Source: Berkelbacteria bacterium GW2011_GWE1_39_12 | Lineage (GTDB): Bacteria; Patescibacteriota; UBA1384; UBA12157 | NCBI GenBank assembly: GCA_001029735.1 | Contig: CP011213.1 | Span: 591,929 to 655,928, forward strand | Length of the DNA: 64,000 bases | Direction: 5' to 3' | In this document: one piece after another, positions 16,698-23,858 of the stretch | Layout of the letters: every line of letters starts with the position of its first letter | Numbering within the stretch: position 1 is the stretch's first letter | Program-made: the position numbers and the translations under genes | The notes under the pieces: model-generated | Databases searched by the model: none | What the model was told of the DNA's origin: nothing | The model's input: only the letters and a program-made list of their open reading frames with translations

Positions 16698-16783
16698 GCC
16701 CGGATGGCGGAATGGTAGACGCGCTGGCTTCAGGTGCCAGTGATCGCAAGATCGTGGAGGTTCGACTCCTCTTTCGGGCACCA
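16698..16783 (+). tRNA. tRNA-Leu (anticodon CAG), class II, CCA encoded
   Basis: Acceptor GCCCGGA pairs with TTCGGGC (one G-U pair); anticodon stem CTGGC/GCCAG with loop TTCAGGT; long variable arm; T-arm GGAGGTTCGACTCCTCT. Confidence 0.85.
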
Positions 16784-16833
16784 AAAATTTGATTAATTTG
16801 TAATTGTTAGTTAATATGGCCCTAGAATAAAAA

Positions 16834-16855
16834 GTCAAGCAATGCTTGGCTTTTT
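16834..16855 (+). terminator. putative intrinsic terminator downstream of tRNA-Leu(CAG)
   Basis: GTCAAGC-AAT-GCTTGGC hairpin followed by TTTTT. It overlaps the first ATG (16842) of the purH ORF, which argues for a downstream start. Confidence 0.4.
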
Positions 16856-16886
16856 ACGTATCTCAAAACTTGAGGAGGAATGGGTG

Positions 16887-18581
16887 ATGATTGCGGTAAG
16901 AGCAAAGAAAAAGAGAGATCCGTACAACATGTCTCTGCAGAGTCTACTGAAGTTCAAAAAGATCGCTCTTGTCTCGGTTTACGACAAGACTAATCTGGCC
17001 GAACGAGTCAGACGTCTGACCAAACAAGGCTACGGCATCCTTAGTTCTGGCGGAACAGCCAAGATGCTACGGGAAAACAAGATTCGCGTCTGTGATGTGG
17101 CAACACTTGTCGGTGGCGGCGCGATTTTAGGCCACAAGGTGGTAACCCTGTCGCGTGAAGTCCATGCGGGTCTATTGGCTGCCGATTGTGAAATCGAGGT
17201 ACTAGAACAGCTTGGCATTCCGCGTATTGATCTGGTAGCGGTTGATCTATATCCTCTTGAGGAAGAAATCGCCAAACCTGATTGCACCCGTAAGAGCGTC
17301 ATCGAGAAAACAGACATCGGCGGACCAACTATGCTTTCTTCGGCAGCCAAAGGTGGACGGATCGTTATTAGTATTCCCGAAGACTGGGAGCCGACGTTGA
17401 CTTGGATCGAATCGGGTTGCCCGGATTTCGACGAAACTGTCAATGCTCAGCGAGCCAAAGCCGACTATGTTGTCGCCAAGTATCGATTGCTTTCGGCGAA
17501 TTATCATAGCGGCGGCATCTACGCCGGCGTGATTGGGCGCAAGGTCAGAGACTTAGCCTACGGCGAAAATCGTGACCAGTCTCCGTCAGCGCTCTACGAA
17601 GAAGATCCGACTGATTCCCTTGGTATGGGTAAATTTGATGTCTTAACAGGTGATCCCAGTCACATTTCTGTCGCCGACGGAGACCGTGCGCTCGGAGTGA
17701 TGTGCGCGGCGGCCGATGCCTTCCGTCTCAACTGCAATGCCGTGCCTTTCATCGCCGTTGCCTGTAAGCACGGCGCTCCATGTGGCATCGGCGTGTCCTT
17801 TGAAACAAGGAACACCGCTCTCGAGAGAGCGCTGATGGGAGATTCGATCGCAGTAATGGGAGCGGAGGTAATGACCAACTTCGCGATCGATGAAGATCTC
17901 GGGAGACTGCTTTACGAAGTGCCAGAGTCACTTCGTGCTCAAGTTGGCTGTAAGTACTGGGGTATCGATGTACTTTACGCTCCTGCAGTTGACGATGCTA
18001 CCATTGATCTCCTCGGCAAAAAAGAGCGTCGACGCATCTTGGTCAATCCGGCGCTTATCTATCCATTCAGCTCCAAGCAGGAGCTGATGGGAAGACCGGT
18101 CCGTGGAGGGTTCCTCAGTCAGAAAGCATACCACTTCATCCTCGATCTTCACGATCTTCATTTACCGCTAACGGCGGGAATGAATGACGATCAAAAGATT
18201 GACGCCATTATCGCTTGGGCTGCATGTTGGCGATCTGTCTCCAATACCGTTGCTTTGGCAAATGATGGCACGCTTATCGGTCTTGGTTGCGGCCAGCAAG
18301 ATCGCATTGCCTGCGTTGAGCTATGCCTGAATCGGGCTAAACGCTCTGGTCATAACACCAATGGCTCGATGTTTGCCTCCGACGCTTTCTTCCCGTTTGC
18401 CAAGAGGAAACGTGAAGAAGATCCGTTAGAAGGACCGGAAATTCTTATCCAGGCTGGCTGCGCCGGCGGCATAGTACCCCATGATGGTAAGAACATAGAA
18501 GAGGTAAGTGCGCTTTTTGATGAGCATAAACTGCTAGTAGGATATCTTCCGTCGATTCACCGTGGCTTCTTCGGCCACTAA
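16887..18581 (+). CDS. purH: bifunctional AICAR transformylase / IMP cyclohydrolase (PurH), GC-rich
   Basis: MGS-like domain 'ALVSVYDKTNLAERVRRLTKQGYGILSSGGTAKMLRENKIRVCDVATLVGG...DLVAVDLYPL'. AICARFT motifs 'LAYGENRDQ', 'ASDAFFPF' and C-terminal 'HRGFFGH'. Start chosen at the ATG preceded by GAGGAGG; 16842 and 16929 are alternatives. Confidence 0.8.
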   Translation: MIAVRAKKKRDPYNMSLQSLLKFKKIALVSVYDKTNLAERVRRLTKQGYGILSSGGTAKMLRENKIRVCDVATLVGGGAILGHKVVTLSREVHAGLLAADCEIEVLEQLGIPRIDLVAVDLYPLEEEIAKPDCTRKSVIEKTDIGGPTMLSSAAKGGRIVISIPEDWEPTLTWIESGCPDFDETVNAQRAKADYVVAKYRLLSANYHSGGIYAGVIGRKVRDLAYGENRDQSPSALYEEDPTDSLGMGKFDVLTGDPSHISVADGDRALGVMCAAADAFRLNCNAVPFIAVACKHGAPCGIGVSFETRNTALERALMGDSIAVMGAEVMTNFAIDEDLGRLLYEVPESLRAQVGCKYWGIDVLYAPAVDDATIDLLGKKERRRILVNPALIYPFSSKQELMGRPVRGGFLSQKAYHFILDLHDLHLPLTAGMNDDQKIDAIIAWAACWRSVSNTVALANDGTLIGLGCGQQDRIACVELCLNRAKRSGHNTNGSMFASDAFFPFAKRKREEDPLEGPEILIQAGCAGGIVPHDGKNIEEVSALFDEHKLLVGYLPSIHRGFFGH

Positions 18582-18606
18582 GATCGAAGATCTCAAACTT
18601 ATTGTC

Positions 18607-18632
18607 AGGCTGGATTTTTTCCAGCCTTTTTA
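18607..18632 (+). terminator. rho-independent terminator after purH
   Basis: GGCTGGA-TTTTTT-CCAGCC hairpin followed by TTTTT. Confidence 0.65.
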
Positions 18633-18651
18633 AATACAAAGACATAAAGCC

Positions 18652-18680
18652 TTGAAGTAATACCTGTTAAATGTTACAAT
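18652..18680 (+). promoter_or_regulatory. sigma70-like promoter upstream of purB
   Basis: TTGAAG, a 17-nt spacer, then TACAAT. A GGGGAGG RBS lies before the ATG at 18729. Confidence 0.45.
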
Positions 18681-18728
18681 CCAAGCGTCTGAAATAGGGG
18701 ACAATATGTTTGGGGAGGTTCGTTAACA

Positions 18729-20096
18729 ATGTTAAGTAGGTATTCATCAAAACAAATGCAAGCCCTTTGGGGCGAGCGTTCAAAGTGGTCGCTGATGCTC
18801 CTGGTTGAGTTAGCCTACATAAAGGCGAAAGCTCAACTTGCGTATCTGCCAATGAGTCTCTATGAGCAGTTTCGCAAACACTCAAAGTTCACGCTGAAAC
18901 GGATCGATGAAATTGAAAACGGTCCGGAAGGTACCGGACATGATGTCTTGGCGTTTGTGAAAACGGTCCAAGAATCGCTGAGGAAAGCGGGGGTTGAACG
19001 TGATGGCGAGTTCCATAAGGGCCTGTCTTCATACAATGCGCAAGACCCCGCGAATATGCTCCGTCTGCGAAAAGCTAATGGGTTAATAATCGAAGCGTTG
19101 TACAAGCTGTACAACAGTTTGAAGAGCATGTCTTTGAAACATAAATGGACTCTGATGCTGGCCTATACTCATGTCCAGGACGCAGAACCGACGACTTTCG
19201 GGCACTTGCTGGCAAACTATGCTTTTCAAATCCGACAGAGGATTCACAAGCTTGAGCGAATCATGGAGGAAGATCTCTGTTGGGGCAATATGGGAGGTAC
19301 AGTTGGCACCTATGCCGGAATTGATATAAAGGTTGCCGAGTTGGCGCTGAGTGAGCTTGGTCTTAAGCCTCGTATTGACACTCAAATCATTTCTCGTGAT
19401 AATCATGCGGAGTTCATGTGTGAATTGGCGATCATCGCCGGTGTCATTGAAGAGATGGCGCGGACTTTCCACATCAGGATGCACAGTGCTATCCATGAAT
19501 TGGAAGAGCCGAAGAAGAAAGGTTATCGTGGCTCCTCGGCAATGTCACATAAGAGAAATCCGAACCTGACCGAACAATTGTTTGGCCTAGCTCGACTGAT
19601 TCGTGCCGCAGCTATGGCAGCTCTGGAGAATATTGAAACGCTGGATTATAGGGACATTGCACAGTCGATCGTCGAGCGTCACATTTTCCCAGATGCTACA
19701 TCTTTGGTTCATCATGCGGTGACGAAGATGACCAAGCTGGTCGAAGGTTTGGTCGTATGTACAGACAGAATGAAGGAACGCGTCGAAGTGGATTCACTCG
19801 GCGTTTGGGCTACGCAGCAGGTAAGAATAGCACTGATGGATGCTGGCGTCTCGTATGACGAAGCATATCTTTACACACAAGCCTGTGCATTTCAGGCTGT
19901 GTCTGAGAAGCGCCACATACTGGACGTCATGTGTGTCAAAGAAGTCTCGGAGACCAACAAAAACACCGCCGATGGTGTCTTGGGTGTAGATAAGTTAAAG
20001 AGCTGTTTCGACGCCAAGAGTTATATCGAATCCGGCATTGAATACAGTTTCACCAAGGCGTTTCCTGAGCTAACAGAAATAAGCGCAGCGGTGTAG
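18729..20096 (+). CDS. purB: adenylosuccinate lyase (PurB), GC-rich
   Basis: Fumarate-lyase signature 'GSSAMSHKRNPNLTEQLFGLARL' and an N-terminus 'YSSKQMQALWGERSKWSLMLLVELAYIKA' typical of PurB, at 455 aa. Confidence 0.8.
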   Translation: MLSRYSSKQMQALWGERSKWSLMLLVELAYIKAKAQLAYLPMSLYEQFRKHSKFTLKRIDEIENGPEGTGHDVLAFVKTVQESLRKAGVERDGEFHKGLSSYNAQDPANMLRLRKANGLIIEALYKLYNSLKSMSLKHKWTLMLAYTHVQDAEPTTFGHLLANYAFQIRQRIHKLERIMEEDLCWGNMGGTVGTYAGIDIKVAELALSELGLKPRIDTQIISRDNHAEFMCELAIIAGVIEEMARTFHIRMHSAIHELEEPKKKGYRGSSAMSHKRNPNLTEQLFGLARLIRAAAMAALENIETLDYRDIAQSIVERHIFPDATSLVHHAVTKMTKLVEGLVVCTDRMKERVEVDSLGVWATQQVRIALMDAGVSYDEAYLYTQACAFQAVSEKRHILDVMCVKEVSETNKNTADGVLGVDKLKSCFDAKSYIESGIEYSFTKAFPELTEISAAV

Positions 20097-20129
20097 AACA
20101 AAGGCGAACAAAATACGAAAGAAAAAGGA

Positions 20130-21470
20130 GTGGAAACGGAAATGATCAAATACGAAAAGGGCGAAATGATCAGCGAAGGGAAGACCAAACAGGTCTTCAA
20201 GGTGGTGGGACATCCCGGTTTGGTAATCATAAGGGCTAAGGACGACATCACTGCTTTCGATCAGGCAAAGTACACGAAGCAATTTCCTGGCAAAGGCATC
20301 TGCTCTACTACGATTACCTGCCGTGTTTTTGAACTGCTAAAGGCAGCCGGAATACCGGTGGGGTATCGTGAACAGCTTTCGGAGCGGGAATTCCTGGCCG
20401 AGGAAGGCACGATGATTCCGCTTGAAGTAATTGGGCGGCGCTGTGTTGCACCGGAAAGCAGTTGCCTGAAGCGGACACCTCAGATCGATCCGAAATCTAT
20501 TGACCCCGTGATCCGTCTGCCGAGGCTTTCTGTGGAGTTCGACCTCAAGACGACGGGAGGCGGCTTCATAGATCGATTCGGTGATCGGGTGGAGCTTGGA
20601 TTGAACGCTGAGCGCAAAGAGGAAGATCCACTGATCGAAGATCCTTATTCTCAAGAATGGCAGTTGCTGCACAGCAAAAAGCCCGCTTGGGAGGATGGGG
20701 CTCGGCTTGGATCCGTTCAGCGTGACCAGGTCATTTCGGACATAGCATTGATCGACAAAATGGATGATCTGACACGCCGGCTGTTCCTGGTTCTCGAAGG
20801 TATGTGGAAAATGCTCGGCTACCACATCCTCGACATCAAAGTCGAATACGGCTTCAACGCTCGTGGCGAATTGATGTTGTTTGATGTTATCGATGCCGAC
20901 TCCTGGAGACTGCGCGACCGGAAATGGGAAGACTTCAGCAAGCAGTCTTTCCGAGACGGTCAGGACCTGGATCGAGTTGCCCGCAAGTTCTGGATTGTCG
21001 CTGACAAGATCCAGCAGTTTGCCATTCCGGATCAGACTCTTGTGGTTTGGCGCGGTTCCGATAAGGATAGCTGGCCTTTGGCGCCAGAATCATATGAGGA
21101 CGTGCCGAATCTTAAGATCGAAATGGTCACGCTTTCAGGGCACAAGCAGACTGGGATGTGCCTCGACAAGCTCAACGATCTGCAGCGCGACTATCCTTCA
21201 GGGGTAATTCTTGCGGCAGTTGGCATGAGTAACGGGCTTGGCCCTGTCTTGGCCGCCCACTCTGTCTGGCCGGTGATTGGAATGCCAGCAACGGCGAAGG
21301 AATTTCCTGAAGACGTCTGGAGCAGTCTTCGGACACCGTCGCAGACCCCAATGCTTGTTTGTCTAGAGAAAAACGCTGTTAATGCAGCACGGAATCTCTT
21401 GGCACTCCAAAACCCCGTACTGTATATGAAACAGCAGCGAGCGGTCGAAGAACTTGATCGCTGTGCATAG
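20130..21470 (+). CDS. fused SAICAR synthetase (PurC, N-terminal) and AIR carboxylase/PurE-like (C-terminal) protein; PAICS-like domain order
   Basis: N-terminus 'EGKTKQVFKVVGHPGLVIIRAKDDITAFDQAKYTKQFPGKGICSTTITCRVFELLKAAGIP' is a PurC signature. C-terminus 'LVVWRGSDKDSW...SGHK...GVILAAVGMSNGLGPVLAAHSVWPVIGMP...NAVNAARNLLAL' is a PurE fold. Confidence 0.7.
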   Translation: METEMIKYEKGEMISEGKTKQVFKVVGHPGLVIIRAKDDITAFDQAKYTKQFPGKGICSTTITCRVFELLKAAGIPVGYREQLSEREFLAEEGTMIPLEVIGRRCVAPESSCLKRTPQIDPKSIDPVIRLPRLSVEFDLKTTGGGFIDRFGDRVELGLNAERKEEDPLIEDPYSQEWQLLHSKKPAWEDGARLGSVQRDQVISDIALIDKMDDLTRRLFLVLEGMWKMLGYHILDIKVEYGFNARGELMLFDVIDADSWRLRDRKWEDFSKQSFRDGQDLDRVARKFWIVADKIQQFAIPDQTLVVWRGSDKDSWPLAPESYEDVPNLKIEMVTLSGHKQTGMCLDKLNDLQRDYPSGVILAAVGMSNGLGPVLAAHSVWPVIGMPATAKEFPEDVWSSLRTPSQTPMLVCLEKNAVNAARNLLALQNPVLYMKQQRAVEELDRCA

Positions 21471-21486
21471 AGTATGTTTCACGTAG

Positions 21487-21520
21487 GAGTCAGCCTTTTA
21501 GGCCGGCTCCTTTTTAATTA
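21487..21520 (+). terminator. putative terminator after the purC-purE fusion gene
   Basis: GC-rich imperfect hairpin GGAGTCAGCC..GGCCGGCTCC followed by TTTTT. Confidence 0.4.
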
Positions 21521-21631
21521 CTTTACATTTCTAATAGATCGGCTTATCCACAGCCTTTTGCTGTATTTTTTTTTAATTTATGTGTTACTTTGAGGTGGGA
21601 GTACTTTTTATAAACTAATAGGGACCGGAGG

Positions 21632-23092
21632 TTGGAAATGAGTGGAGAACTACATGAAGAATGCGGAGTATTTGGGATTAGCGCTGAAGGCGAAGACGTT
21701 GCTAGATTAACCCATGCAGCCATACTTTGGTTGCAACATCGAGGGCAGGAATCGGCCGGTATTGCTACATCAGATGGTCAAGAAATTAGGTTGCAGAAAC
21801 AAGATGGTAGAGTTGACCATTTTACAGAAGAACAAATGGTTATGCTAACCGGTAAGAATCCGTTGGCCATGATGGCTATTGGTCATAATAGATACTCTAA
21901 CACTGGTGGAAATATCTATGAAAACTTTCAACCATTTGTGGTTCAAACTTCATTAACTCCACTAGCTTTGGCTCACAATGGGAATTTGGTTAACCCTGAT
22001 GCTATTGCAAAAAAGTTGAAAGATCTAGGTGTTACGCCTCAGGGCTCATCTGATAGCGAATTGATTGCTTTGTTAATTGCAGCGGAAAGTCAGAATGCAT
22101 CGAGTATTGAAAAAGCAATCGAGCTTACCATAAAACAATTGGTTGGTGCTTATTCATTAGTGATAATGACTAAGGATCAATTGATTGGCGTTCGTGATCC
22201 GTGGGGCATCAGACCGCTTAGCTTGGGTCGACTTAATGATCATCATTATCTTTTGGCTTCAGAAACCTGTGCAATAGAGGCTGTAGGTGGTAGTTTATTC
22301 AGAGATCTGGAACCCGGAGAAATGGTTGTAATTGACAAAGGCGCTGAGCCAAGATTTTCTCAAATATTGCCAAAACAATGCAAAAAACTCTGTATTTTCG
22401 AGTTTATATATTTTGCTTCTCCAGGAAGCATTATGTATAATCGTTTGTTGCAAACTGCCAGACGTCATATGGGAGAAATGCTCTGGAAAGAATTTCCTCT
22501 CAAAATAGATAATCCTGACGAATGGGTAGTTGGCGGCGTGCCAAACACAGGTCTTCCAGCAGCTCAAGGATTTGCCGAAGCCTCTGGACTTGAGTTTCGT
22601 AATATTATAGTCAAAAATCCCTATGTTTTTCGAACGTTCATCCAACCAGATCAACGACTCCGAAAACTTGGAGTTAAGGCCAAGCTATTGCCTCTTCCTC
22701 GCGAAGTCATGAAGAAAAAAGTGATTTTGGTTGAGGATTCGATTGTTCGAGGTAATACCTCGGGTGAGATTATTGAAATGCTTCGTAAAGCTGGTGCCAA
22801 AGAAGTGCACATGATGATTTCTTCGCCGCCATATATACACCGCTGTTACATGGGTGTAGATACTCAATATAGTAGCGAGTTGATTGCTGCCCAAAAGTCG
22901 ATCGAAGAGATCCGACAGTTTATCAAGGCTGATTCATTAAGCTACCTCTCGTTGCCTGGACTCATTGCTGCAATCAATAAGGAAAAATACGAGGAACCAA
23001 TCCCGCCAGGATCTTTCTGCGACGCCTGTTTCACAGGTAAGTATCCTTTCCCCATCCCTCAGGAAGAGGGAAGATTCGAGCTGAGCGCTTGA
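21632..23092 (+). CDS. purF: amidophosphoribosyltransferase (glutamine-PRPP amidotransferase, PurF)
   Basis: A propeptide precedes the catalytic Cys ('EECGVFGI'); 'IGHNRYSNTGG'; PRTase motif 'VILVEDSIVRGNTS'; C-terminal Cys pattern. Its composition is closer to the host than the three genes upstream. Confidence 0.85.
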   Translation: MEMSGELHEECGVFGISAEGEDVARLTHAAILWLQHRGQESAGIATSDGQEIRLQKQDGRVDHFTEEQMVMLTGKNPLAMMAIGHNRYSNTGGNIYENFQPFVVQTSLTPLALAHNGNLVNPDAIAKKLKDLGVTPQGSSDSELIALLIAAESQNASSIEKAIELTIKQLVGAYSLVIMTKDQLIGVRDPWGIRPLSLGRLNDHHYLLASETCAIEAVGGSLFRDLEPGEMVVIDKGAEPRFSQILPKQCKKLCIFEFIYFASPGSIMYNRLLQTARRHMGEMLWKEFPLKIDNPDEWVVGGVPNTGLPAAQGFAEASGLEFRNIIVKNPYVFRTFIQPDQRLRKLGVKAKLLPLPREVMKKKVILVEDSIVRGNTSGEIIEMLRKAGAKEVHMMISSPPYIHRCYMGVDTQYSSELIAAQKSIEEIRQFIKADSLSYLSLPGLIAAINKEKYEEPIPPGSFCDACFTGKYPFPIPQEEGRFELSA

Positions 23093-23100
23093 GTTCAATT

Positions 23101-23125
23101 CCCCGTGAGCAATCACGGGGTTTTT
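23101..23125 (+). terminator. rho-independent terminator after purF, in the convergent gap
   Basis: CCCCGTGA-GCAA-TCACGGGG hairpin followed by TTTTT. Confidence 0.7.
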
Positions 23126-23129
23126 GTAT

Positions 23130-23705
23130 TTAAAGTTCTTCCCACTCGATTGGTTTTTCGGGGAATGCGGCCATGTAGGCATAGCCGCGAAAGTTTCGAT
23201 ATATCTTTCCGACATTTAGAGTTCTTAAAAAGTCGACCATTTCAGAGGTGACATCTTTGGGTTTTTTGTCAGTTTCGCCCGCAAATTCGATTTCCACAAA
23301 GTCACCCAGACCTTTAACCTTGTCGATGCTTATTTCATATTTTTTATATTTATAAATGATTCGGGTTTTATCGACTTGGCAAATCTTTTTATGTTCTAAT
23401 GCCTCAAAAATTCTTTCTAAGTTTTTATAATTTTCAATTTTAGTTTCATATTCATCACAATGATGGCTACGTCCGGTTTCGTCATATTTCCAATTCTTAT
23501 AGTTAATGGAATCTCCCTTTTCTGAACTACGAAGTCTGAGCCATTCGTTCACTTTTTTCTTCGCCAAAAAATTCCTATGTTTAGGTGTAAAATATTTATC
23601 GATTTGTCTTTGTGTGCCAGTCAGTTTTGCATTTTCTTTCAAAAAATCGATCAATGGTTTGGTTTTTTGTAATTTAACTTGAATTTCGATTTCAATATTT
23701 TTCAT
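23130..23705 (-). CDS. CYTH-domain protein (CyaB/thiamine-triphosphatase-like)
   Basis: The N-terminal 'EIEIQVKL' ExExK-type motif and acidic/basic strand motifs fit the CYTH triphosphate-tunnel fold, at 191 aa. Confidence 0.55.
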   Translation of the reverse strand: MKNIEIEIQVKLQKTKPLIDFLKENAKLTGTQRQIDKYFTPKHRNFLAKKKVNEWLRLRSSEKGDSINYKNWKYDETGRSHHCDEYETKIENYKNLERIFEALEHKKICQVDKTRIIYKYKKYEISIDKVKGLGDFVEIEFAGETDKKPKDVTSEMVDFLRTLNVGKIYRNFRGYAYMAAFPEKPIEWEEL

Positions 23706-23772
23706 AATGATTAATAAAATCTTACACCCATGGTTGATTTTTTGCCACTTTTAAGGTAGAATATAGGTGTTG

Positions 23773-23858
23773 GCCCGAGTGCTGGAATGGTAGACAGGCT
23801 ACCTTGAGGTGGTAGTGTCCGCAAGGGCGTGGAGGTTCGACTCCTCTCTCGGGCACCA
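23773..23858 (+). tRNA. tRNA-Leu (anticodon GAG), class II, CCA encoded
   Basis: Acceptor GCCCGAG pairs with CTCGGGC; anticodon stem CTACC/GGTAG with loop TTGAGGT; long variable arm; T-arm GGAGGTTCGACTCCTCT. Confidence 0.85.

What the first reader, a model, noticed from the sequence alone, without database searches (positions are those of the whole stretch)
20130..21470. PAICS-like PurC-PurE fusion protein with a possible class II PurE signature
A single 446-aa ORF joins an N-terminal SAICAR synthetase (PurC) domain to a C-terminal PurE-fold domain. The domain order is the same as in animal bifunctional PAICS. In the PurE domain the conserved 'SAHR' position reads 'SGHK'. As I recall it, Lys at this position is characteristic of class II PurE (direct AIR carboxylase, no PurK or N5-CAIR needed); class I PurE has 'SAHR'. 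I recognise no purK in the window, which would fit. A PAICS-like fusion in a bacterium is uncommon and may point to the donor of the island.
Basis: inference. Interest (0 to 1): 0.6.

Follow-up and report, generated by a model that had tools for sequence, protein, structure and literature searches.

The report
Bacterial PAICS-type PurC–PurE fusion gene
This is a real single gene in a tiny groundwater bacterium (Candidatus Berkelbacteria) that joins two consecutive purine-synthesis enzymes in the same way as animal PAICS, but the fusion is common in bacteria, so it is an ordinary member of a known enzyme type that sits in a horizontally acquired gene block.

Summary
One uninterrupted gene encodes an N-terminal SAICAR synthetase (PurC) and a C-terminal PurE domain. 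The likely start is ATG 20142 (442 aa), not GTG 20130. Its best solved relatives are animal PAICS, by sequence and by predicted fold.

The PurE domain carries three class II (direct AIR carboxylase) motifs: SGHK, GMSNGLGP and SSLRxPS. Catalytic residues of both active sites are conserved. No purK lies in the 64 kb window.

The claim that the fusion is uncommon in bacteria is wrong. At least 586 GTDB species genomes encode a full-length relative, and there are 208 clusters (50% identity) at E<=1e-30. Most named close relatives are Patescibacteria (CPR). A second clade occurs in Xanthobacteraceae, Verrucomicrobiota, Planctomycetota and others, and is the one closer to eukaryotic PAICS.

The island is real. 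purH-purB-purCE have GC3 0.52-0.59 against about 0.30 in flanking genes. They sit between tRNA-Leu(CAG) and a resident purF, in a slot that is empty or holds only purF in syntenic relatives. The nearest relatives of the purCE and purH genes are other CPR bacteria, not eukaryotes.

Verdict: a new member of a known kind, of modest interest.

The parts
20142..21470 (+). purCE gene: PAICS-type bifunctional SAICAR synthetase / class II PurE, 442 aa. The mechanical ORF begins at GTG 20130.
20169..20960 (+). SAICAR synthetase (PurC) domain, Pfam PF01259
   Evidence: Catalytic residues GKTK, T37, E95, K136, D162, K233, K267 and R271 are conserved.
20178..20189 (+). ATP-binding GKTK loop of the PurC domain (human G16-K19)
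   Evidence: active-site residue list from PMC9376930
20556..20684 (+). Approximate position of about 40 extra residues in the PurC domain relative to animal PAICS (residues about 139-181). Present throughout the CPR clade.
   Evidence: 89 residues against 47 in human between human positions 115 and 162. The region is modelled as extra beta-strands at high confidence.
21054..21434 (+). PurE-fold (AIRC) domain, Pfam PF00731
21051..21068 (+). PurE phosphate-binding loop RGSDKD (human MGSTSD). G, S and the final D are conserved.
21135..21146 (+). 40s loop SGHK: catalytic His334 followed by Lys335 (class II; class I has SAHR)
21222..21245 (+). 70s loop GMSNGLGP (human GRSNGLGP; T. denticola GRSNALSG; class I GGAAHLPG)
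21312..21341 (+). DVWSSLRTPS motif, shared with PAICS and T. denticola class II PurE. Class I enzymes have LLSxVQMPxG here.
16698..16783 (+). tRNA-Leu(CAG), left edge of the variable slot
16842..21470 (+). GC-rich block purH-purB-purCE. GC3 is 0.52-0.59 against 0.28-0.33 in flanking genes.
16887..18581 (+). purH (AICAR formyltransferase / IMP cyclohydrolase). The database start gives 564 aa; the mechanical ORF starts at 16842.
18729..20096 (+). purB (adenylosuccinate lyase), 45 nt upstream of purCE
21638..23092 (+). purF (amidophosphoribosyltransferase). Native-like composition (GC3 0.35); resident gene of the slot.
23130..23705 (-). CYTH-domain gene, low GC, inside the slot. Absent from the slot of relatives.
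23773..23858 (+). tRNA-Leu(GAG), right edge of the variable slot

Best explanation
The gene encodes a bifunctional enzyme of de novo purine synthesis, of the same type as animal PAICS. The C-terminal class II PurE domain adds CO2 directly to C4 of aminoimidazole ribonucleotide (AIR) to give CAIR. It does this without ATP, without the N5-CAIR intermediate and without PurK. The N-terminal SAICAR synthetase domain then ligates CAIR to aspartate, using ATP, to give SAICAR. The adjacent genes continue the pathway: PurB (SAICAR to AICAR) and PurH (AICAR to IMP). PurF makes the first intermediate.

The gene belongs to a large clade of such fusions dominated by CPR bacteria. In this genome it lies in a 4.6 kb GC-rich purH-purB-purCE block. 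That block was acquired horizontally, most likely from another CPR bacterium. It was inserted just downstream of tRNA-Leu(CAG) and upstream of a resident purF.

Shown here: domain architecture, fold, motif and active-site conservation, gene context, family distribution, and compositional and comparative evidence for the insertion. Inferred: the catalytic activities, the use of CO2, and any oligomer or substrate channelling.
For: - Pfam gives SAICAR_synt plus AIRC on one ORF.
- The best solved relatives are Bombyx PAICS 4ja0 (E 1.8e-44) and human PAICS 2h31 (E 1.8e-39). The second aligned stretch runs across the domain junction.
- The AlphaFold model has pLDDT 92 and pTM 0.92. Its best Foldseek matches are human PAICS 6yb8 (E 3.6e-30, TM 0.60/0.63) and Bombyx PAICS. 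Single-domain PurC and then PurE structures follow.
- A profile of the family's PurE domains ranks the three experimentally established class II enzymes first. These are Bombyx PAICS (91.8 bits), human PAICS (82.9) and T. denticola PurE (56.0). The best other PurE, M. jannaschii 2ywx, follows at 52.0, T. maritima at 51.7 and A. aceti at 49.8.
- The motifs SxHK and GxSNG(L/A)GP are present in nearly all of the 78 bacterial fusions tabulated, with one or two single-residue exceptions. SSLRxPS is conserved in the 120 CPR homologues and in the PurE-domain alignment.
- The residues listed as the active sites of human PAICS in PMC9376930 map to identical residues in the window protein. In the PurC domain these are GKTK, T37, E95, K136, D162, K233, K267 and R271. 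In the PurE domain they are G305, S306, D309, S332, H334, K335, G361, S363, N364 and G365.
- Context supports the pathway role. The cluster is purH-purB-purCE-purF. In 23 CPR loci of the same clade, the families most often found within 4.5 kb are PurB (14), PurL/PurM domains (9/6/4) and PurH (2).
- The island is supported by GC3 values and by the slot being empty or holding only purF in syntenic relatives.
- The closest PurCE and PurH relatives that carry a name are Patescibacteria.
Against: - No biochemistry exists for any member of this clade.
- Human Arg331, which contacts the substrate phosphate, is Met362 here. It is Met in 18 of 36 clade members and Arg in 10. Ala302 is Gly.
- With the single sequence, T. 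denticola class II PurE scores lower (17.7 bits) than some class I enzymes (24 bits). With the profile, its margin over the next-ranked non-class II PurE is small (56 against 52 bits).
- Steps 2-5 of the pathway (PurD, PurN/T, PurL, PurM) are not in the window. A search seeded with the relative's PurM found no copy on this genome's 915 kb contig among the best 120 hits (inconclusive). It is therefore unproven that the substrate AIR is made in this cell.
- No integrase or true direct repeats mark the island.
Confidence: 0.8

Rival explanations
1. The PurE domain acts as a class I N5-CAIR mutase. It would use N5-CAIR formed non-enzymatically at high CO2, or made by a PurK encoded elsewhere in the genome.
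For: The PurE fold is shared by both classes. With the single sequence, some class I structures score above T. denticola class II PurE. Archaea without PurK that carry class I-like PurE are documented (PMC3261824). The whole genome could not be searched for purK.
Against: All three class-discriminating motifs match class II and not class I: SGHK not SAHR, SNGLGP not AAHLPG, SSLRxPS not LLSxVQMPG. No purK lies in the window. No ATP-grasp or PurK family is among the 25 families most often found next to the gene in 23 CPR loci.
Confidence: 0.07
2. Only the PurC half is catalytic. The PurE domain would be a degenerate scaffold kept for oligomerisation.
For: Arg331 of PAICS is replaced by Met. Standalone PurC proteins of about 300 aa of the same subtype exist, so the PurC half can function alone.
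Against: The catalytic His334, Ser332, Lys335, the GS..D loop and the SNG residues are invariant or nearly so across 78 diverged bacterial fusions. That argues for selection on catalysis.
Confidence: 0.04
3. The cluster is the remnant of a partial pathway. The cell would import or salvage an intermediate (AIR or AICAR riboside, or host-derived nucleotides) rather than run the full de novo route. The enzyme works as described, but on salvaged substrate.
For: PurD, PurN/T, PurL and PurM are absent from the 64 kb window. The syntenic relative L004 has purM in the slot but this genome does not. Some relatives keep only purF in the slot. The nearest PurH relative sits in a PurC-PurB-PurH cluster without PurE. 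Only 32% of 399 CPR genomes had a complete de novo route to IMP (PMC11608272).
Against: PurF, the committed first step, is retained next to the block. Related CPR loci carry PurL and PurM near purCE. The rest of the 915 kb genome was not examined.
Confidence: 0.25
4. The fusion came from a eukaryote (an animal-like PAICS transferred into a bacterium), so the gene marks a eukaryotic donor of the island.
For: The best solved structures are animal PAICS.
Against: This is an effect of which proteins have solved structures. Identity to human PAICS is 29%, against 45-57% to hundreds of CPR proteins. Eukaryotic PAICS representatives rank at the bottom of the best 150 clusters. In a rough tree, eukaryotic PAICS groups with the other bacterial clade, not with this one. 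The neighbouring purH is also CPR-type.
Confidence: 0.02

Closest known systems
Animal PAICS (human 2H31/6YB8, Bombyx mori 4JA0): bifunctional SAICAR synthetase / AIR carboxylase
   Same: Same domain order (PurC N-terminal, class II PurE C-terminal). The alignment runs across the junction. The SAICAR-synthetase catalytic residues are the same. The class II motifs SxHK, SNGLGP and SSLRxPS are the same. It is the best match by sequence and by predicted fold.
   Different: Only 29% identity to human PAICS. About 40 extra residues in the PurC domain. Arg331 to Met, Ala302 to Gly, and P-loop RGSDKD against MGSTSD. The gene is bacterial and sits in a pur cluster. The octameric state is unknown.
Treponema denticola PurE (3RG8), the biochemically characterised bacterial class II PurE
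   Same: A bacterial class II PurE with SAHK, GRSN and SSLRMPS motifs. It is the third-best solved match to the family's PurE-domain profile.
   Different: It is a standalone 159 aa protein, not fused to PurC. Its 70s loop is GRSNALSG rather than GMSNGLGP. Similarity to the window protein alone is weak (17.7 bits).
Class I PurE plus PurK (E. coli, A. aceti, S. aureus, Coxiella): N5-CAIR mutase with N5-CAIR synthetase
   Same: Same PurE fold, and the catalytic His and Ser of the 40s loop.
   Different: Class I has SAHR, GGAAHLPG and LLSxVQMPG where this protein has SGHK, GMSNGLGP and WSSLRTPS. Class I needs PurK and ATP. No purK is in the window.
Other bacterial PurC-PurE fusions ('clade B': Xanthobacteraceae such as Rhodoplanes and Pseudolabrys, Verrucomicrobiota such as Chthoniobacter flavus, Tepidisphaerales, Polyangiaceae, Dependentiae, some CPR)
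   Same: Full-length collinear homologues at 37-40% identity, with SxHK and GRSNGAGP.
   Different: They are closer to eukaryotic PAICS (33-37% identity, 186-226 bits, against 140 bits for the window protein). Their insertion is shorter. They mostly keep the Arg331 equivalent. In the high-GC genomes they are not next to purine genes.
Fungal and plant ADE2 (PurK-PurE class I fusion)
   Same: A PurE domain fused to another enzyme of the same pathway step (established knowledge).
   Different: The partner is different (PurK, not PurC), and the PurE domain is class I.

Membership tests
PAICS-type bifunctional enzyme (EC 6.3.2.6 + 4.1.1.21) | SAICAR synthetase and PurE domains on one polypeptide, with PurC N-terminal | tested here: met
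   Pfam domains at 14-277 and 309-435 on one ORF. The identical protein occurs on 6 contigs. The model has pTM 0.92. PAICS is the top match by sequence and fold.
PAICS-type bifunctional enzyme (EC 6.3.2.6 + 4.1.1.21) | Conserved SAICAR synthetase ATP and substrate residues (human G16-K19, T40, E97, K131, D137, K191, K228, R232) | tested here: met
   All are identical in the window protein and invariant in 78 bacterial fusions. The residue list is from PMC9376930.
PAICS-type bifunctional enzyme (EC 6.3.2.6 + 4.1.1.21) | Octamer built on a PurE core, with possible CAIR channelling | not testable with these tools
   Only a monomer was modelled.
Class II PurE (AIR carboxylase) | 40s loop S-x-H-K (Lys after the catalytic His; class I has Arg) | tested here: met
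   SGHK at nt 21135-21146. K is invariant in 78 fusions. The Arg/Lys difference is stated in PMC10484210.
Class II PurE (AIR carboxylase) | 70s loop G-x-S-N-x-(L/A), in place of class I G-G-A-A-H-L-P-G | tested here: met
   GMSNGLGP, compared with PAICS, T. denticola and class I sequences. The Arg of GRSN is Met here.
Class II PurE (AIR carboxylase) | SSLR-x-PS motif shared by PAICS and T. denticola PurE | tested here: met
   DVWSSLRTPS.
Class II PurE (AIR carboxylase) | The six class-distinguishing residues of Mathews et al. 1999 (cited in PMC3261824) | not tested
   The original list could not be retrieved; the Tranchimand 2011 paper is not held. The motif comparison above is a substitute.
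Class II PurE (AIR carboxylase) | Genome lacks purK | tested here: inconclusive
   None in the 64 kb window, and none among the common neighbours in 23 CPR loci.
Class II PurE (AIR carboxylase) | Direct, ATP-independent carboxylation of AIR with CO2 | not testable with these tools
   Needs an enzyme assay or complementation.
Class I PurE (N5-CAIR mutase) | SAHR and GGAAHLPG motifs | tested here: not met
   NCBIfam TIGR01162 scores 45.9 bits against a cut-off of 149.6.
Horizontally acquired genomic island | Composition differs from the host genome | tested here: met
   GC3 is 0.52, 0.53 and 0.59 for purH, purB and purCE, against 0.22-0.35 in 11 flanking genes.
Horizontally acquired genomic island | Site is empty or differently filled in syntenic relatives | tested here: met
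   tRNA-Leu(CAG) and tRNA-Leu(GAG) are about 130 nt apart in L095 and L099. L091, L097 and L100 hold purF but no purH, purB or purCE. L004 holds a different cassette.
Horizontally acquired genomic island | Integrase or other mobility genes, and flanking direct repeats | tested here: not met
   No integrase lies in the slot. The only flanking repeat is the similarity between the two complete tRNA-Leu genes.

The most novel reading that the evidence does not exclude
The PurC-class II PurE fusion arose in bacteria. Eukaryotic PAICS would then be a branch of this bacterial family that entered eukaryotes by gene transfer. Bacterial fusions are far more diverse than the eukaryotic ones. In a rough midpoint-rooted tree, the eukaryotic sequences nest beside the non-CPR bacterial clade.

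In CPR bacteria the purine genes may in addition circulate as exchangeable cassettes. One landing site is the tRNA-Leu slot seen here.
Probability: 0.3. Interest if true: 0.55.

Novelty: new member of a known kind. Interest (0 to 1): 0.3.

Why it matters
The result corrects the common view that the PAICS fusion and direct AIR carboxylation are animal traits with only rare bacterial exceptions. The architecture is present in hundreds of bacterial species.

It gives ultrasmall CPR bacteria an ATP-saving, PurK-free route through the AIR to SAICAR steps, which fits life in CO2-rich anoxic groundwater.

The locus is a clear example of purine genes being gained, lost and swapped in a fixed slot next to tRNA genes in CPR genomes. 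That bears on how host-dependent these organisms are.

For drug-target arguments that treat class I PurE/PurK as 'the microbial route', it is a reminder that many bacteria use the human-type chemistry.

Tried and rejected
- A frameshift or two separate genes is rejected. The reading frame is uninterrupted, the identical 442 aa protein is on 6 contigs, and more than 100 collinear homologues exist.
- GTG 20130 as the start is rejected in favour of ATG 20142, because the GTG abuts the ribosome-binding site.
- I looked for a riboswitch or other known RNA in 13-26 kb. Rfam at E<=0.1 found only tRNAs.
- I looked for island direct repeats or an integrase. The only repeat is the similarity between the two tRNA-Leu genes, and there is no integrase.
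- Promoter and terminator scans were not above chance. A terminator-like hairpin follows purH and a strong one follows purF.
- I tested for purM in this genome by searching with the relative's PurM and looking for a hit on the 915 kb contig. The best 120 hits were all 72-81% identical and none was on that contig. This is inconclusive, because thousands of hits lay below the list.
- A literature search for 'PurCE' and similar terms with word-start matching returned only noise. No paper describing CPR PAICS-like fusions was found. Tranchimand 2011 is not held.
- I tested whether high GC is a general property of this gene in CPR genomes. This holds only in part. The mean GC3 excess is 0.08. It exceeds 0.1 in 18 of 61 loci and 0.2 in 5 of 61. 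The window's excess of 0.29 is therefore unusual and not a family trait.
- The NJ tree is rough: no outgroup, no bootstrap, long branches. I use it only to say which bacterial clade is nearer to eukaryotic PAICS, which agrees with the pairwise scores.
Its aligned parts and its residue numbering agree with the PDB alignments and with the residue numbers in PMC9376930.
Full report
**1. The observation**

The ORF at 20130..21470 (+) is real and uninterrupted. It is 446 aa from a GTG start. Public databases hold the identical protein as 442 aa (P0001). NCBI names it 'hypothetical protein DD449_05270 [Candidatus Berkelbacteria bacterium]', and its longest contig is 915 kb.

That shorter version starts at ATG 20142, which lies 12 nt downstream of an AAGGAG at 20124-20129. 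The GTG abuts that site, so 20142 is the more likely start. The same protein is called on six independently assembled contigs. A frameshift or chimeric assembly is therefore excluded.

Pfam finds SAICAR_synt at residues 14-277 (E 1.6e-34) and AIRC at residues 309-435 (E 4.3e-13). Both halves fall well below the NCBIfam equivalog cut-offs for bacterial purC and purE, so the protein is divergent from the textbook bacterial enzymes.

**2. What the protein is**

Against all solved structures, the best sequence matches are the two animal PAICS enzymes. These are Bombyx 4ja0 (E 1.8e-44) and human 2h31 (E 1.8e-39). One aligned stretch runs from the C-terminal half of PurC, through the linker, into PurE.

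An AlphaFold model built on 54 family members is confident (pLDDT 92, pTM 0.92). Its best Foldseek matches are human PAICS 6yb8 (E 3.6e-30, TM 0.60/0.63) and Bombyx PAICS. Single-domain PurC structures and then class I PurE structures follow.

I mapped the residues that PMC9376930 lists as the two active sites of human PAICS onto the window protein.
- The SAICAR-synthetase residues are identical: GKTK, T37, E95, K136, D162, K233, K267 and R271.
- The PurE-site residues are also identical: G305, S306, D309, S332, H334, K335, G361, S363, N364 and G365.
- All are invariant or nearly so in 78 bacterial fusions.

The differences from PAICS are as follows.
- There are about 40 extra residues in the PurC domain.
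- Ala302 is Gly, so the loop reads SGHK.
- The P-loop reads RGSDKD.
- Arg331 is Met362. This position is Met in 18 and Arg in 10 of 36 members of this clade.

**3. Class I or class II**

It is met here.

Two further loops discriminate the classes in the alignments.
- The 70s loop is GMSNGLGP here. It is GRSNGLGP in PAICS and GRSNALSG in T. denticola PurE, but GGAAHLPG in class I.
- The window has WSSLRTPS. PAICS has WSSLR/SxPS and T. denticola has YSSLRMPS, but class I has LLSxVQMPG.

With the single sequence, PAICS scores 47 and 41 bits, class I enzymes about 24, and T. denticola PurE only 17.7. With a profile of 25 PurE domains from the family, the three experimentally established class II enzymes rank first at 91.8, 82.9 and 56.0 bits. 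The best other PurE follows at 52.0.

The class II assignment is therefore well supported by motifs. It is supported only narrowly by overall similarity to the one characterised bacterial class II enzyme. The 'six distinguishing residues' of Mathews et al., cited in PMC3261824, could not be checked directly.

**4. purK and the rest of the pathway**

The window holds purH (16887-18581), purB (18729-20096), purCE and purF (21638-23092). It holds no other pur gene. The only ATP-grasp protein is D-Ala-D-Ala ligase.

Steps 2-5 of the pathway (PurD, PurN/T, PurL, PurM) are not in the window. Whether they, or purK, lie elsewhere on the 915 kb genome could not be tested. A search with a relative's PurM was inconclusive.

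In 23 CPR loci of the same clade, the families most often found within 4.5 kb of purCE are these:
- adenylosuccinate lyase (14 members);
- PurL/PurM domains (9, 6 and 4 members);
- PurH (2 members).

No ATP-grasp or PurK family is among the 25 most frequent. This context places the clade firmly in purine synthesis.

**5. How common the fusion is**

- The word-indexed search found 1211 proteins at E<=1e-5. The best 120 were all fused, at 45-57% identity. Every one of them that carries a taxon-specific name is from Patescibacteria, Parcubacteria, Minisyncoccia or Pacebacteria; one is labelled only 'bacterium'.
- The exhaustive search of 1.84 billion cluster representatives found 208 clusters (50% identity) at E<=1e-30 and 702 at E<=1e-10. 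These include standalone PurC proteins of about 300 aa of the same subtype.

Besides many CPR lineages, full-length fusions at 37-40% identity sit on long, high-GC contigs from non-CPR bacteria. These include Xanthobacteraceae (Rhodoplanes, Pseudolabrys), Verrucomicrobiota (Chthoniobacter flavus, Terrimicrobiaceae), Tepidisphaerales, Polyangiaceae and Dependentiae. Their gene GC equals the locus GC.

This second clade is closer to human PAICS (33-37% identity, 186-226 bits) than the window protein is (29%, 140 bits). Eukaryotic PAICS representatives (P0509 at 78% and P0507 at 56% identity to human) group beside it in a rough NJ tree.

JGI already annotates members as 'phosphoribosylaminoimidazole carboxylase / SAICAR synthase'. 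One survey scored the de novo route to IMP as complete in 32% of 399 CPR genomes (PMC11608272). I found no paper that discusses the CPR fusion itself.

**6. The island**

purH, purB and purCE have GC3 of 0.52, 0.53 and 0.59. Eleven flanking genes have 0.22-0.35, and purF is native-like at 0.35. The block starts about 60 nt after tRNA-Leu(CAG) (16698-16783). The slot ends at tRNA-Leu(GAG) (23773-23858).

A related Berkelbacteria contig (L004) has the same backbone and also carries a GC-rich cassette between the same two tRNAs, with purM and an NTP-transferase gene in addition. Identities between the two genomes are as follows:

| Protein | Identity (%) |
|---|---|
| ChlI | 85 |
| PurF | 69 |
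| SBP | 67 |
| PurCE | 57 |
| PurH | 37 |
| PurB | 26 |

The cassette is therefore mosaic, not simply inherited.

Ten further syntenic relatives settle the matter.
- In L095 and L099 the two tRNA-Leu genes are about 130 nt apart, so the site is empty.
- In L092 they are about 800 nt apart.
- L100 and L097 hold only a purF homologue (63% and 27% identity).
- L091 holds purF (46% identity) and a flavoprotein.

The slot between the two tRNA-Leu genes is thus a variable site. purF is its older resident. The purH-purB-purCE block is a later gain.

The nearest relatives of PurH (best 65%) and of PurCE are CPR proteins, so the donor was most likely another CPR bacterium with higher GC. No integrase or true flanking repeat was found. 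The mechanism of insertion is unknown. Recombination at the conserved tRNA genes is a guess.

**7. Mechanism proposed**

Shown here:
- a two-domain PAICS-type protein with both active sites intact;
- class II motifs in the PurE domain;
- placement in a pur cluster.

Inferred:
- The PurE domain carboxylates AIR directly with CO2, without ATP and without PurK.
- The PurC domain converts CAIR plus aspartate plus ATP to SAICAR.
- PurB and PurH complete the route to IMP.
- purB and purCE, 45 nt apart with no terminator between them, are probably co-transcribed (which is not above chance).

An ATP-saving, CO2-dependent step would suit an anaerobic groundwater organism. That point is inference from the argument made for archaea in PMC3261824.

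**8. Verdict**

The finding is real and the enzyme assignment is sound. It is a new member of a known, already auto-annotated enzyme type, and not a rarity.

The more interesting points are secondary.
- The fusion has a wide bacterial distribution and a possible bacterial origin for PAICS.
- A tRNA-flanked slot exists in which purine genes come and go in Berkelbacteria.

Interest 0.3.

Noticed in passing
window 16698-23858; loci L004, L091, L092, L095, L097, L099, L100: The interval between tRNA-Leu(CAG) and tRNA-Leu(GAG) is a variable slot in this lineage. It is empty (about 130 nt) in L095 and L099. It holds a purF homologue in L100, L091 and L097, with an unannotated 242-aa ORF in L100 and a flavoprotein in L091. 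It holds different pur cassettes in L004 and in the window.
   Followed up: yes
L004:4587-5759 and proteins P0241-P0360: PurM of CPR bacteria is unusually uniform. The best 120 hits are all 72-81% identical. The named ones span Parcubacteria, Paceibacterota, Taylorbacteria, Spechtbacteria, Wildermuthbacteria and Nomurabacteria. PurCE is only about 45-57% identical across the same kind of set. This may mean strong constraint or recent spread of purM.
   Followed up: no
L008:10001-11353: In this CPR contig the purCE fusion stands alone, with no other pur gene within 10 kb. It lies between the EF-Tu/S10 ribosomal-protein cluster and the EF-G/S7/S12 genes.
   Followed up: no
L009:7223-11650 (also L010): The closest relative of the window's PurH (65% identity) lies in a cluster of standalone PurC (306 aa), PurB (577 aa) and PurH, with no PurE. 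The exhaustive search also found many PurC-only proteins of about 300 aa of the fusion's subtype.
   Followed up: partly
L053-L072 (Xanthobacteraceae, Verrucomicrobiota, Tepidisphaerales loci): In high-GC non-CPR genomes the fused gene has no purine-synthesis neighbours. Its neighbours include xanthine-dehydrogenase-like molybdenum enzymes (3 loci), 3-hydroxyacyl-CoA dehydrogenases and UbiD-type decarboxylases. Its role there is unclear, and so is whether these genomes also carry the classical purE, purK and purC.
   Followed up: partly
61 loci among L011-L090: purCE has higher GC3 than its neighbours in many low-GC CPR genomes. The excess is above 0.1 in 18 of 61 loci and above 0.2 in 5 (for example L028, L036, L047, L056). 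This suggests repeated transfer from GC-richer sources.
   Followed up: partly
window 23130-23705 (-): A low-GC CYTH-domain gene sits inside the slot between purF and tRNA-Leu(GAG). It has no counterpart at that position in the relatives examined.
   Followed up: no
window 20541-20543 and 20895-20897 (P0001 residues D134 and A252): The window protein has two substitutions that are unique within its clade, near the PurC active site. D134 is Phe in 35 of 36 members. A252 is Asn in 34 of 36.
   Followed up: no
protein P0509 (1012 aa): A cluster representative whose C-terminal 425 residues are 78% identical to human PAICS carries about 590 extra N-terminal residues. This is probably a merged eukaryotic gene model.
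   Followed up: no
window 16842-16886: The purH ORF can start 15 codons upstream of the start used in databases (579 against 564 aa). The upstream start would lie only 58 nt after the tRNA-Leu(CAG) gene.
   Followed up: no
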